Shown piece after piece: positions 28,705-56,928 of a DNA stretch of 64,000 bases. Origin of the DNA: Eledone cirrhosa (taxonomy: Eukaryota); contig OZ024758.1 in the NCBI GenBank assembly GCA_964016885.1, positions 992,001 through 1,056,000 of the forward strand, written 5' to 3'. Positions within the stretch are counted from its first letter, which is position 1. Each line of letters starts with the position of its first letter. The position numbers were made by a program, and so were the translations under genes. The notes below the pieces were generated by a model. That model saw only the letters and a program-made list of their open reading frames with translations. It searched no databases and was not told the origin of the DNA.

Positions 28705-28767
28705 TATTTTATTATATATATTTCAAAGGTATAATGGTGTTTAAGTACGTTTTCATCAGACAAAATA
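28705..28767 (-). ncRNA. Minimal type I hammerhead, family A
   Basis: Minus strand reads TATTTTGT-CTGATGA-aaa c gta...tac c ttt-GAAA-tatata-TA-ATAAAATA. Confidence 0.72.
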
Positions 28768-29068
28768 TATGATTTGATATGCCACATGCCGCTACGGTTT
28801 TGATTACGGGCGCTCTATCTCAAAATTATTTTTGAAAAGCATTAGAAATGCGCAACCGGTAAAAACTTAAAACTAAAACTGAATACTAACCAATACTTAT
28901 TACTAATTTTTACTTATTCCTAATTAAACTATTTTTCACTGGGAAAAATTTGTCAGCATTTTCTTTTTCTTTTACTAATATATATATATATATATATATA
29001 TATATATATATATATATATATATATATATATATATATATGTGTGTGTGTGTGTGTGCGTGTGTGTGTG

Positions 29069-29983
29069 TCGGGTTCGATCGGAGGTAACCACAGATATAC
29101 ACAGCAGAGTATATATATTGACCTTCTAACGCCAAACGTCTTTATATATATATATATAAGAAATGAGGTGCAACAGAAATGAAACATGGATTACAGGTTA
29201 AAATATAGTCTAGATAGATGAGAAACAAAACGAGGATGTAGTTTATGGAACATCCAAATGATTTAGAAGTCGACTTTAAGTAGGAGCAATAACATTAAGA
29301 AAGACATGAACGACACCACATCATTTTGTTTTGAAAATTTTGAAAGTCGGTTTATAAGTATGAATTTTCATGCGATTTTCGTAGTTGTCTCCGTGGCCTA
29401 GCGGTAGGTTCTAGGGACAGTGGAGATCCTGGTCTTGGGTTCAATCCTGGTCAAGAGGTACATGTAGCCTTTTTCAGTTTTTATTTTGCAGCCCATAGAA
29501 AAAAACTGAAAAGGTTTACTGGGAACCCTATTATCAACCAGGATCGAACTTCAGACCAGGATCATCCCCGTCTATTATTCCTCCAACTAGGCCATCGAGA
29601 CATCTACAAAAGTATAACGAAAATTGATAATTATAAACCTACTTTCAAAATCAAAGTTAAAAAGATGTGGTGCTCTTCATGGCTTTCCTAGAGTTATTAG
29701 TAATAATTAGGGTCGACTTCTGGTCATTATTGAAAGTCTCCGGATTTCGCAAAATACATATGTTTTATTGGAGAAGGTAAGATATTTTTCCGCAAAAATT
29801 TGATTGCATTGTTTTGTTTCCACTTCTGTATTTTTCGAAAATGTTATTTATTCATTATAAAAATTAAATGTATATGGATGAAATAGTGATAGTCCTGTAG
29901 AAACCACTTCTATATTAAATTTGTTGTATACACTCTACTAATGTATTGAATATTTTATTGTGGCTACCTATTATTGAACCTGG
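29069..29983. mobile_element. Degenerate fold-back element with two convergent tRNA-like Pol III promoter heads
   Basis: Plus-strand A box TGGCCTAGCGG (29394) and B box GGTTCAATCC (29438). Minus-strand A box TGGCCTAGTTGG (29594-29583) and B box AGTTCGATCC (29550-29541). The inverted arms are diverged and the terminal repeats are weak. A second copy lies in reverse orientation at about 52100-52669. Confidence 0.72.
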
Positions 29984-53098: not shown

Positions 53099-56000
53099 CA
53101 ATATAAACAGTCTTATAAATAAATATATATATTATTTACATATACAGTACACTTATATTTTGTAATTGTCCGTAGATTTGAGTATATATATCAGCGTGTG
53201 TATATTTGCGTGTTTAAACGTTATTTTCTCAAATCGATCTTTACAAATTCTTCATTTATCTCTTCAAGACTGTTTTTCTCTATTTATTTAGCTTTGTTCT
53301 TTTAACTTATATATATTCTCATTTCATTCAGACTTTTATCTCAGCTTGTCATCTTTTAAAACGGAACATTTACCTTGAAGCAACGAACCAAATGTTGAGT
53401 TATCTTTCCTTATCTATCGTGTTCTTAGTATTATTATCGTTTTTTGTTGTTGTTGTTGTTGTACTTGTGATGGTTGTTGTTGCTGTTTATATTATTACCG
53501 TTTCACATTGTGATGGGTTATTGGTTTATTCTTGTTGTGGTTGTTGTTGTTGTATTTCGTAAATGATGAATTGTTTGTTGTTTTTGTTGTTTTTATTTTT
53601 AGTTTTCTTTTCAGTTTTTTTTTCAAAAATATTTGTAACCTTCTTCTTCTCATTATCATTATTATTATTATTACTATTGTTCCTGTTGTTATTATTGTAT
53701 TTGTTGTTGGTGTTGTAGTTGTGGTTATTTTTATTGTCTTTACTGCTACTGTTTGTATGTTTGTTGTTGTTATTGTTGATGTTGTTGTTGTGGTTGATAT
53801 TGATGTTGTTGTTGTTGTTGTTGTTTTAGGATTTGTTTCTGTTATTACCTAGTTTTATTTTTGTATTTATTTCAGATTTTCAGATTCGATTCTCTGCCAT
53901 CCACAAATGTTGGAGAGTGTTTAGTAGATGGAACTATCTCTGCATCGTCATCGTAATCGTCATCTTCATCGTCATCGTCATCATCATCATCAACCTCGTG
54001 TGTGTGTGTGTGTGTGTGTGTGTGTGTTTGTGTGTGTGTGTGTGTGTGTGTGTGTGTGTGTGTCTGTGTGTGTATCTTGGCAAGAGCACAAAGGCTGTGT
54101 AAGGTGTAACAGGGGTGTATATAAAAGCATATAATATATGTTTATATGCAATATCCAAATGGAATCCTCGCTATCAAACAGAACATTTTTTCATAAGGAA
54201 AAGAATGTTTTCATTGAGTTTCTCATATTTTTATTATATATAAACATATAGTACATACTTCTATATACATCCCTACACAGACACGCACACACACACACAG
54301 ACACACACACATATATATATATATGTATAAATATAAATATATATATGTGTGTGTGTTTGTGTATGTGAGTGTTTTGGCTGTTCTTGTGTTAGTATATATA
54401 TATATATATGTGTGTGTGTATGTATATATGTATGTGTGTGTATGTGAAAGAGAGAGAGAGAGAGAGAGAGAGAGAGAGAGAGAGAGAGAGAGAGAGAGAG
54501 AATGTGTATATTTGTGTCGCCTGACTTCGATACCCGGACCCGGCGGCCTGTGGTGTCCTTGAACAAGACGTTTATTTCACGTTACTTCATCCAGTCGGAT
54601 GACAAATATGAGTTGCATCTGAAATTCAAGAGACCAGTCTCGTCACACATTGTTCCTGGAATGCTAAGGGCTATGTTATCATATTAACCTGAATGACAGT
54701 TTAATTTGGCCACTTTGGCAGGCCACGGTAGAGTTTTATCTCACAATTCAAAGAGTCGCTATAATAATTAAGAAACTTCCTTCCTCTAGCCTGGTACTTT
54801 TTATGAAAAAACTCTCTTTTATCAATGTTGAAGTACGAAGTTGATACGGGTTCTATTTGAATTGAGAAAGTAATTTGCCGGTATATATTGTGCAAGGTAT
54901 TTCGTCGATCGCCATGACACGGTCTAAAGTGAAAGTTAGTTGTTGTTCTAAACAGTGACCACGTTGAGGTTTCTTTTGTTGGCTCGATGACACCTTGCGT
55001 TTGTATGGAACGGTAGAAAACTGCGAATTCTATATGATTGTCAGATTCCTTCTTGTTAGCTTGACCTCTGCAATCAACTCTAACATTTCATGGCACTTGC
55101 TAAATCTCTTGTGTCTCTCTATCTATTTGCCTGGATAAATGGATAGATAGATTGTTGACTAGATGGATGGACGTATGGCCGAATGGCTAGCTAGTTTCAA
55201 ACCAGCTTTCGGGAATTGGGGAATTGCTGGTTTGTTGTTTGCACAGATGGTAAAATTTTCTTGTGTCAAGTGTATATATGTTGGAGGTAGAGAATGTTGA
55301 CAGTTTGATCTAAGCAGACTGCACCGAACTCACTTCTCCTCACCTCCCACAAACACCAGCAGTAGTAGCATCATCAGTCCCACTACTACATCCAGCTTCA
55401 ATACCACCATTTATACCATGACTACCACCATTTATACCATGACTACCACGATTACTACCACCATAATCTTCGACTTCGCTAAAGTAACATTACTACAATA
55501 TTACTTCTCATCAAATCTTCACCACATCAAGCCATACTATGTTTAGCAACCACTAACACCGCAACCACTAACACCACAACTACCAAAACACTACCACCAA
55601 CATCAACACCGCTGGAACCACACCACCACCACCACTACCAACACACTACCCCCAACACCATCAGTAATAACAACCAACACCAACACCACCACCATCAACA
55701 TCACCACTTCCAACACACTACCACCAATATCAACAGCAATAACAACCCCTACCACCACCACCACTACCAACACACTACCACCACCACCACTACAACCAAC
55801 ATCAACACCACTGGAACCACACCACCACCACTACCAACACACTACCCCAACACTATCAGTAATAACAACCAACACCAACACCACCACTACCAACACACTA
55901 CCACTACCACCATCAGTAATAACAACACTATCACTACCACCACCACCACCACCACCACCACCACCGCTACTCCTTACTGTCTCTGCTACTGTCACTATCC

Positions 56001-56551
56001 CTATCAACATTGTCACCCCCATTGCTCCACCTTTACCACCCCAACACTCTACGTTCCCACGTACCTTGTCACATACCTCCCCATATATCCTACCCCACCT
56101 AACATAGTTCACAGTTTCATCCCTAACACCATTGGTAAGTAATTGGACCTAGCTTGTCAAGAAACGACTCCAAGCTATCTTTCACATAAAGACTGAGATA
56201 GATAGATAGATGGATAGAGAGAGAGGGGGAGAGGGAGAGAAAGAGAGAGACCGAGAGAGAAATAGAGGGGGGAGGGAGTAAGAGCGTGAGAGAGAAAGAG
56301 AGTTAGAGAATGTGTGTGATAGAAACTAAGGTAAAAATATACCACAAATAAAATCAAACATGTGTGTCTAGTTATATATATATTTCTTTATTTATATGTA
56401 TATATATGCATATATATATATATATATATATATATATATATATATATATATATATATATATATATGGAAAGTTATATTTAAATTGTTGGGTTACAACGAG
56501 TAAATATTTATAACTGATATAAAAGCACTCAACAAGTATTTGGAGTATATT

Positions 56552-56928
56552 TACGATATTAAATAAATGGAAATTATATTTATAAAACCATATTTATTTC
56601 ATTATATATATTTCAGGGATATCATATTAAAAATATGTTATGCCTTCTTCAGACAAAATACAATATAGACAGTCTTATAAATAAATAGATTCGACATACC
56701 GTTCAACATCGACTTGCATTTGAAAAGTTGATTTGGTAGTCTACCAAATCAACTTTTCAAATGCAAGTCGATGTTGAACGGTATGTCGAATCTATTTATT
56801 TATAAGACTGTCTATATTGTATTTTGTCTGAAGAAGGCATAACATATTTTTAATATGATATCCCTGAAATATATATAATGAAATAAATATGGTTTTATAA
56901 ATATAATTTCCATTTATTTAATATCGTA
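56552..56928. repeat. 377-bp palindrome (188-bp arms, 1-nt centre at 56740) made of two family-A hammerhead elements (56595-56660 minus; 56820-56885 plus)
   Basis: The arms read as exact reverse complements around ATTTGGTAG-T-CTACCAAAT. Each arm contains TATTTTGT-CTGAAGA-aggcataacatatttttaatatgatatccct-GAAA-tatata-TA-ATGAAATA. Confidence 0.92.

What the first reader, a model, noticed from the sequence alone, without database searches (positions are those of the whole stretch)
28705..56885. Family-A hammerhead: six copies with an invariant core and covarying stem II
Copies at 28705, 31323, 41333, 53033, 56595 and 56820 all keep CTGA(T/A)GA, GAAA-TATATA-TA and stem I (TATTTT(A/G)T with AT(A/G)AAATA). 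Stem II sequence differs between subfamilies yet stays paired: GTACCAAAA/TTTTGGTAC; AAG-GCA-CCAA/TTGG-TGC-CTT; AGG-ATA-CATATT/AATATG-TAT-CCT; AAA-GTA/TAC-TTT. A C-C mismatch recurs at the fourth position. Core variation is confined to N7, the position known to be free. This is the pattern expected from selection on ribozyme structure during amplification.
Basis: partly seen in the sequence, partly recalled or inferred. Interest (0 to 1): 0.75.

Follow-up and report, generated by a model that had tools for sequence, protein, structure and literature searches.

The report
Hydra-clade Penelope retrotransposon tail hammerheads
The six motifs are real hammerhead-shaped RNA sequences at the cut-off ends of a known kind of jumping gene that has left tens of thousands of such ends in this animal genome; they are predicted to cut only in pairs, and two short repeated signals beside them likely mark where the element's copying starts.

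Summary
They are 5'-truncated ends of Hydra-clade Penelope-like retroelements (3.74-kb unit, 737-aa RT + GIY-YIG ORF, (TA)n target). The motif has 48,662 genome matches against 147 for the control.

Stem II covariation survives a tree-based null (two pairs at E 0.03-0.045 over all pairs). The C-C mismatch is kept at 95-96% per side, and also in a second family whose protein is only about 50% identical. Within family A the 3' flank is as invariant as the core.

Insertions end 48 or 138 nt past the predicted cut, almost never at it, and 31 of 31 inverted pairs use one end each. So the copied RNA was uncut or re-joined, as published for another Penelope element. Each end lies 7-10 nt before one copy of a small RCTCC..GTYGAG repeat, confirmed by prediction in the second family.

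PLE hammerheads, dimer dependence and covarying families are published. The AUA site, fixed mismatch and twin signals were not found in print, but this scan noted the last two before on other DNA. Cleavage is untested.

The parts
28658..28977 (-). 5'-truncated end of a Hydra-clade PLE (28705-type subfamily) between two (TA)n runs; hammerhead 28705-28767, predicted cut after 28713; short end (E1-type)
   Evidence: 73% match to the L036 element over 28658-28776; outer limits taken from the flanking TA runs
31284..31515 (+). 5'-truncated PLE end, older family-A subfamily; hammerhead 31323-31383, predicted cut after 31375; long end (E2, cut+140)
   Evidence: 77-80% to L109/L036 elements
41288..41464 (-). 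5'-truncated PLE end, older family-A subfamily; hammerhead 41333-41397, predicted cut after 41341; short end (E1)
   Evidence: 86% to L036 element over 176 nt
52993..53122 (-). 5'-truncated PLE end, young family-A subfamily; hammerhead 53033-53098, predicted cut after 53041; short end (E1, cut+48); in an intron of the host gene, sense to it
56466..56740 (-). left arm of one two-armed insertion; hammerhead 56595-56660, predicted cut after 56603; long end (E2, cut+137); carries signal I (ACTCC..GTTGAGTGC, about 56525-56546)
   Evidence: 94% to L109 element
56741..56926 (+). right arm of the same insertion; hammerhead 56820-56885, predicted cut after 56877; short end (E1, cut+49)
   Evidence: arms 99.5% identical over 56642-56838
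11309..11666 (-). seventh copy, family B2 (stem I ACTGC/GCAGT), hammerhead 11355-11416 with C x C kept and A15.1 changed to G; a tail-only piece of the same family faces it at about 11190-11237(+)
47085..62041 (-). host context: Lhx2/9-type LIM-homeobox gene; open frames 61601-62041 (LIM), 47747-48040 (homeodomain), 47085-47357 (last coding part); exon limits not mapped
   Evidence: PF00412, PF00046; Lhx9, 2dmq, E 2e-23

Best explanation
These are type I hammerhead motifs in the pseudo-LTR of Hydra-clade Penelope-like retrotransposons, left in the window as 5'-truncated ends inserted into (TA)n, and they are predicted to cut only as pairs and likely with help from the element's own protein. 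Shown: parent unit of about 3.74 kb = hammerhead, about 185 nt of 5' UTR, 737-aa ORF, 1.3-kb 3' UTR, hammerhead; two fixed insertion ends (cut+48, cut+138), one on each arm of inverted pairs; each end 7-10 nt before a copy of RCTCC..GTYGAGY; fixed C x C in a covarying stem II. Inferred: the protein nicks (TA)n and starts reverse transcription inside the 5' UTR at the two sites marked by the twin signals, on an RNA that is still intact (or re-joined) at the hammerhead, so every insertion, however short, carries a hammerhead. Cleavage would act at another step, cutting tandem transcripts to unit length when two hammerheads pair through the palindromic AUAUAUAU stem III. Lone intronic copies would stay uncut and harmless. 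The C x C mismatch is likely a selected shape (docking of stem II on stem I, or a protein contact).
For: Parent elements: (ORFs of 739-761 codons stop to stop in 8 of 20 fetched regions; HHR-ORF-HHR tandems 3.74 kb apart in L109, L110). Fold pLDDT 91.7, top PDB match TERT. Hydra motifs DKT, RWR, CxCX5C, CxxC..E, CxH (against PMC8557442 section 11). Ends: 68 E1 and 54(+9) E2 of 156 family-A copies; 31 of 31 classifiable inverted pairs are E1+E2, 6 more pairs unclassifiable; 11,660 plus-strand E1 ends against 223 matches (control 74) ending at the cut. Two internal RT starts, the tail and uncut RNA as substrate are shown in vitro for PAc (PMC11167929). Twin signals. Covariation. Dimer: double hammerhead 8.7 kcal/mol below two monomers in all six copies; monomer stem III costs 2.2-3.3 kcal/mol; the loop variant TATGTA (46 of 94) still self-pairs, more weakly.
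Against: No cleavage or expression data. With only the 15 clusters of two or more members no pair was significant (best E 0.96); at the finer clustering only one pair passes 0.05 over all pairs. Within family A the 3' flank is as invariant as the core. 10.1-11.1 is not the canonical G-C in family A and is paired in only 42 of 52 representatives. The helix inside the twin signals is only 3-5 bp and weak (-2.9 and -4.2 kcal/mol), so they may act as sequence or as DNA. No partner for the two Cs was found; invariant bases cannot covary.
Confidence: 0.8

Rival explanations
1. The fold is kept as a binding or structural element for the PLE protein, and self-cleavage is vestigial or dispensable in this lineage.
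For: Insertions almost never end at the cut. PAc hammerhead mutants insert normally in vitro and no RNA reads ended at the cut (PMC11167929). Family A has A-U or G-U at 10.1-11.1 and an all-AU stem III.
Against: The catalytic core, the free N7, the NUH site and a palindromic stem III are all kept in families about 50% identical in protein: 9 of 12 whole B1 copies chosen by their far end are perfect and 3 have single private changes. This is the pattern of catalysis rather than of a binding site.
Confidence: 0.12
2. Cleavage and re-ligation make a unit-length circle that is the main template for insertion; the hammerhead is on the direct path of amplification.
For: Insertions contain an intact junction and continue into the 5' UTR; full-length copies carry upstream pLTRs of variable length. 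Proposed in PMC4209133.
Against: An uncut tandem transcript gives the same DNA; uncut RNA was the dominant substrate for PAc in vitro. Genomic data cannot separate the two.
Confidence: 0.2
3. The pattern reflects common descent of a few master elements, with no selection on RNA structure.
For: Six copies reduce to four stem II types; the small sample is not significant; the flank is equally conserved within family A.
Against: In a tree-based null the top four (52 representatives) or five (82) of 1,653 pairs are predicted helix pairs; five stem II pairs have E<0.05 among the 17 predicted pairs in both runs. Stem I is rewritten between families yet pairs, and family A shows A-U, G-U and G-C at 2.2-1.2.
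Confidence: 0.05
4. The cleaved RNA, which would end in (AU)4A, anneals to the nicked (TA)n target and primes insertion there.
For: Stem III is the target repeat; about 18-20 of 24 inspected family copies stop in a TA run at this point.
Against: Only about 150 net matches, 0.3% of 48,662; internal priming or later slippage deletion explains them equally well.
Confidence: 0.03

Closest known systems
Hydra clade of C-terminal EN+ Penelope-like elements, incl. Hydra-1_Obim of Octopus bimaculoides (Craig et al. 2021, PMC8557442; read: outline, sections 6 and 11, passages, supplement part 2 with Files S1/S2, alignment passages)
   Same: Single ORF RT + C-terminal GIY-YIG; DKT, RW(K/R), CxCX5C, CxxC and CxH; (TA)n target; type I hammerhead near the 3' end with palindromic stem III; inverted 5'-truncated partner and a one-sided tail.
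   Different: All 26 Hydra rows of File S2 have stem III AC..GU (GUH site) and list uninterrupted stems II; here stem III is AUAUAUAU (AUA site) and stem II has a fixed C x C after 3 bp. The Hydra-1_Obim hammerhead is a different sequence. Unit 3.74 kb against 'generally <3 kb'; tail 89-99 nt against 30-40; tens of thousands of copies.
PLE hammerheads of metazoans (Cervera and De la Pena 2014, PMC4209133; read: parts 1-2 of 4)
   Same: Type I motif in pLTRs, long helix II, palindromic helix III, predicted dimers, many lone copies, pairs on opposite strands 100-700 bp apart, families full of compensatory changes.
   Different: No extra base between A9 and 10.1; G10.1-C11.1 only in B families; the internal C x C is not mentioned in the parts read (figures not seen).
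PAc, Poseidon element of Anolis carolinensis (Frangieh et al. 2024, PMC11167929; read: parts 1-2 of 4)
   Same: Two fixed RT start sites inside the RNA downstream of the hammerhead that define the tail; AT-rich target; uncut RNA copied; protein-binding region 3' of the start.
   Different: PAc starts lie in one AC-rich stem-loop inside the ORF; here the two ends lie in the 5' UTR, 89-99 nt apart, each before its own copy of a repeated signal. Different clade.
Metazoan non-LTR retrozymes (Cervera and de la Pena 2020, PMC7229834, passages; Li et al. 2026, 10.64898/2026.07.22.740005, part 1 of 5)
   Same: Type I hammerheads in very high copy number; PLE-related.
   Different: Retrozymes are non-coding tandem repeats; the window copies are lone or inverted truncations of a coding 3.7-kb element.

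Membership tests
Type I hammerhead ribozyme | Core CUGANGA..GAAA..UH with three helices, open at stem I | tested here: met
   6 of 6 copies; 81 of 94 perfect in a sample not chosen on the core
Type I hammerhead ribozyme | Helices supported by covariation | tested here: met
   10.6-11.6 E 0.030 and 10.3-11.3 E 0.045 over 1,653 pairs (52 representatives); stem I only borderline (2.1-1.1 E 0.045-0.061 among 17 predicted pairs); own R-scape-like script; not significant with 15 sequences
Type I hammerhead ribozyme | Match to an Rfam hammerhead model | tested here: not met
   none among 70 matches at E<=10 in six loci; none in the 150 of 292 window rows shown
Type I hammerhead ribozyme | Site-specific self-cleavage | not testable with these tools
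   needs an in vitro assay or end-mapping in RNA
Penelope-like element (C-terminal EN+) | Single ORF with telomerase-like RT and C-terminal GIY-YIG | tested here: met
   737-aa ORF with YRDD and IIY..YVG; Foldseek top hit TERT, E 1e-9; no Pfam family reached E 1 for the whole ORF; the EN domain rests on motifs, not on a separate fold search
Penelope-like element (C-terminal EN+) | pLTR tandems, inverted 5'-truncated partner, one-sided tail, hammerhead in pLTR | tested here: met
Hydra clade | DKG changed to DKT; RWK motif | tested here: met
   KSDKTN and RIRWR (R for K) in 4 of 4 ORFs
Hydra clade | CxCX5C linker; CxxC and CxH around E and N; CCHH absent | tested here: met
   CNCRDRSKC, CDLCAEE, CRH/CKH; one Cys only inside the GIY-YIG core
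Hydra clade | GxKF/Y motif not conserved | tested here: inconclusive
   a GVKF word occurs in the first 200 aa; whether it is the positional equivalent was not tested
Hydra clade | Insertion into (TA)n | tested here: met
Hydra clade | Placement in the Hydra clade by phylogeny with the reference proteins | not tested
   reference proteins seen only as text in the supplement; likeness to Hydra-1_Obim judged by eye
Non-LTR retrozyme | Non-coding tandem repeats with one hammerhead per unit | tested here: not met
   window copies are not in tandem arrays and match the ends of coding elements

The most novel reading that the evidence does not exclude
The 5' UTR of this lineage is a three-part RNA device. 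A hammerhead gated by a fixed C x C kink is followed by two copies of a small RCUC/GAGY hairpin signal, and each signal sets one reverse-transcription start 7-10 nt upstream of it. One RNA thus loads two RT molecules that build the two arms of an insertion, and the spacing of the signals sets the length of the Penelope 'tail' (89-90 nt in family A, 99 nt in family B1). That would give the first sequence rule for where a Penelope RT starts.
Probability: 0.4. Interest if true: 0.6.

Novelty: new member of a known kind. Interest (0 to 1): 0.33.

Why it matters
As a ribozyme find it is ordinary: hammerheads at Penelope ends are known, including in Octopus. Its value is as a test system. The lineage is young and abundant, has intact ORFs, and offers tens of thousands of natural variants. 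It shows a fixed stem II mismatch and an AUA site not seen in the published Hydra rows. It also has a repeated signal whose spacing tracks the tail length in two families. These give direct mutational tests of two open questions, namely what PLE hammerheads do and how the PLE RT picks its two internal starts. Rfam missed these motifs in the loci scanned, so ribozyme counts for such genomes may be too low.

Tried and rejected
1) Priming from the cleaved (AU)4A end: rejected as the main route (223 matches against 74 control; inspected).
2) Rfam: no hammerhead match.
3) Pfam on the ORF: no RT or GIY-YIG family; the precomputed accession PF26215 on many homologs is not named by any search.
4) Tertiary partner of the C x C by covariation: none; no unpredicted pair was significant.
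5) A bulged G extending stem I as partner for the Cs: present only in part of family A, dropped.
6) AATAAA after the cut as a conserved poly(A) signal: 144 of 166 family A at +5, 22 of 28 B1, 11 of 15 B2/B3, but missing in 11 of 13 copies of the 28705-type subfamily, and no poly(A) tails were seen in the copies printed; left as a weak lead.
8) Lunse, Weinberg and Breaker 2017 (PMC5785218) is not held; known only through a review passage (PMC6765202), so a C x C variant could be described there or in figures and supplements of PMC4209133 that I did not see.
9) First covariation run had stem I out of register for copies with extra TA; redone.
10) The summary line printed zeros through a type error; end counts were tallied by hand from its printed table.
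11) Sequence look-up in earlier findings returned only an unrelated bacterial note.
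Full report
Observation. All six motifs are present as described, four on the minus strand: stem I of 8 bp, CUGAWGA, stem II of 3 bp + C x C + at least 3 bp, GAAA-UAUAUA-UA, predicted cut after AUA. Self-comparison shows that 56595 and 56820 are the arms of one 197-bp palindrome (99.5%), and 53033 is the same subfamily. The window therefore holds five insertions and four stem II types, each next to a TA run. A seventh copy of another family, with A15.1 changed to G, is at 11355-11416(-). 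The host region is an Lhx2/9-type gene on the minus strand; three of the six copies are in its long intron.

Scale. The core pattern has 48,662 matches in the 3.0-Gb genome against 147 for the reversed pattern. A pattern on stem I and flank that leaves the core free has 32,352 against 4. The two sets overlap, so these are not additive.

Parent element. Inverted or tandem pairs 3.2-3.7 kb apart enclose RT and GIY-YIG frames. A search with the C-terminal 160 aa found 61,610 candidates, 150 scored. Of 20 regions chosen for long frames, 8 hold 739-761-codon frames. L109, L110 and others show hammerhead, 5' UTR, 737-aa ORF, 1.3-kb 3' UTR, hammerhead, with a unit of about 3.74 kb. The sequence past the 3' hammerhead is the start of the 5' UTR. 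Pfam does not recognise the ORF. The model (pLDDT 91.7) has TERT as top PDB match. The ORF carries DKT, RWR, CxCX5C, CxxC..E and CxH and has one Cys in the GIY-YIG core, which are the Hydra-clade marks of Craig et al. 2021. That paper lists Hydra-1_Obim from Octopus with a different hammerhead, and all 26 Hydra rows have AC..GU stem III. No tree with their reference proteins was built.

Core and flanks. I fetched 94 of the 100 listed copies, which were not chosen on the core. Core positions show 0-4.3% minor bases; 13 of 94 copies depart from the strict pattern, one through a mis-registered match, and only C3 to T recurs (2 copies). N7 takes all four bases (31% minor). Six stem II positions vary 27-54% besides 11.2 (50%). 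Loop 3 is TATATA or TATGTA in about equal numbers. The contrast appears between families. Family B1 has a different stem I, tail and stem II, and an ORF about 50% identical. Of 12 whole B1 hammerheads chosen by their far end, 9 are perfect, 3 have one private change and all keep C x C. Families C to F were found with the core pattern, so their core conservation is by construction.

C x C. Among the 48,662 matches, 2,356 lack C on the 5' side and 2,000 on the 3' side (controls 88 and 132), so 95.2% and 95.9% keep it. The listed exceptions are mostly scattered single changes; one small family has C x A, still unpaired.

Covariation. From 262 distinct copies (32 long-TA and 2 edge matches set aside first, 5 chance matches dropped, 257 kept) I took 52 or 82 medoids. 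I scored G-test with APC against a null that reshuffles parsimony substitutions on the tree (own script, not R-scape). Over 1,653 pairs, 10.6-11.6 has E 0.030 or 0.025 and 10.3-11.3 has E 0.045 or 0.115; the top four or five pairs are all predicted ones. Among the 17 predicted pairs, 10.2, 10.3, 10.5, 10.6 and 10.9 pass 0.05 in both runs, and 2.1-1.1 is borderline. 10.4-11.4 pairs in 4 of 52, although the sample is enriched for C x C mutants. With only 15 multi-member clusters nothing was significant. No unpredicted pair was significant.

Dimer. In the energy model the 2-bp monomer stem III costs 2.2-3.3 kcal/mol. The double hammerhead lies 8.7 below two monomers and 2.1-4.3 below two copies without stem III. 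This fits the published view of PLE hammerheads. The 56595/56820 pair would form a -164 kcal/mol hairpin in pre-mRNA and likely cannot fold as ribozymes.

Ends. Of 156 family-A copies, 68 end at cut+40-56, 54 at cut+120-145 and 9 at 146-149; 8 read on into the 5' UTR and 17 fall elsewhere or show no TA run. All 31 classifiable inverted pairs have one short and one long end; 6 pairs ran off the locus. Short ends number 11,660 on the plus strand alone; the minus count is inflated by overlapping matches. Ends at the cut site number 223 against 74 control. So the copied RNA was intact or re-joined at the hammerhead. Frangieh et al. 2024 showed two internal RT starts, the tail between them, uncut RNA as the main substrate and protein-assisted cleavage for a Poseidon element.

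Twin signals. In young family A, ACTCC..GTTGAGTGC starts at cut+57 and GCTCC..GTTGAGCGC at cut+148. Of 92 copies, 77 could be mapped: 32 end at 48-49 and 31 at 138-141 (hand tally). I predicted the same for B1 and searched past its long end. Of 87 matches (control 0), 77 by eye carry the GCTCC-type word, which the pattern did not ask for, at a fixed distance. In B1 the signals start at 61 and 160; of 40 copies 27 mapped, with modes at 54 (8 copies) and 153 (6), and a spread of 148-155. Tail length thus follows signal spacing in both families (89-90 against 91; 99 against 99). ACTC/GAGT becomes GCTC/GAGC between the two copies, which suggests a short helix, but it is weak, and two single upstream regions have a mismatch at its outer pair.

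Literature and earlier notes. Searches: 'Penelope-like, hammerhead, pLTR, Hydra, microsatellite'; 'hammerhead ribozyme, Octopus, Penelope' (only Craig 2021); dimer and palindromic terms; 'hammerhead, C-C mismatch, stem II' (none); polyadenylation; internal initiation; tail, stem-loop and initiation sites. None showed the fixed mismatch or the twin signals. Lunse et al. 2017 could not be read, and figures and most supplements were not seen. This scan's unchecked notes already report the mismatch in this genome (e1-9848614), two hairpins in Hydra tails of other genomes (e1-9980798, e1-9191373) and two fixed ends in a retrozyme here (e1-8665316).

Verdict. The motif is real, under selection as a structure, and a new cephalopod-type member of a known kind. 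Catalysis, the role of the mismatch and the role of the twin signals are inferred. Interest 0.33.

Noticed in passing
window 11190-11666: Seventh hammerhead (family B2, A15.1 changed to G) and a tail-only piece of the same family facing it across one microsatellite.
   Followed up: partly
window 29159-29721 and 52097-52672: Two copies (89% over 525 bp) of an element with long internal inverted repeats, MITE-like.
   Followed up: no
window 33637-35371 (-): Broken non-LTR retrotransposon end; the 218-aa frame looks like a zinc knuckle plus restriction-like endonuclease (recalled likeness; no Pfam hit at E 0.01).
   Followed up: no
window 8750-8983, 13002-13345, 22470-22673, 26728-27062, 39361-39504, 47433-47621: Dispersed repeat of about 145-200 bp, 73-84% alike, sometimes in tandem; SINE-like.
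   Followed up: no
window 48294-48381: Near-perfect 88-nt hairpin with a TA loop, just 5' of the homeodomain frame in gene orientation; below Rfam gathering scores.
   Followed up: no
L244, L254, L263, L267: Copies in which stem III has grown to (TA)8 by slippage with the stem I arm kept; such copies might fold as monomers.
   Followed up: no
L283/L284: Small two-armed derivative of family B1 made of the 5' UTR with both signals and no hammerhead in the stretch printed.
   Followed up: no
L222, L229, L230: Small family D with C x A at stem II position 4 and A x A at 10.1-11.1.
   Followed up: partly
5-25 nt after the predicted cut, most families: AATAAA in families A, B, C, D and E but not in most copies of the 28705-type subfamily.
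   Followed up: partly
window about 4920-5120: Assembly gap of 200 N.
   Followed up: no
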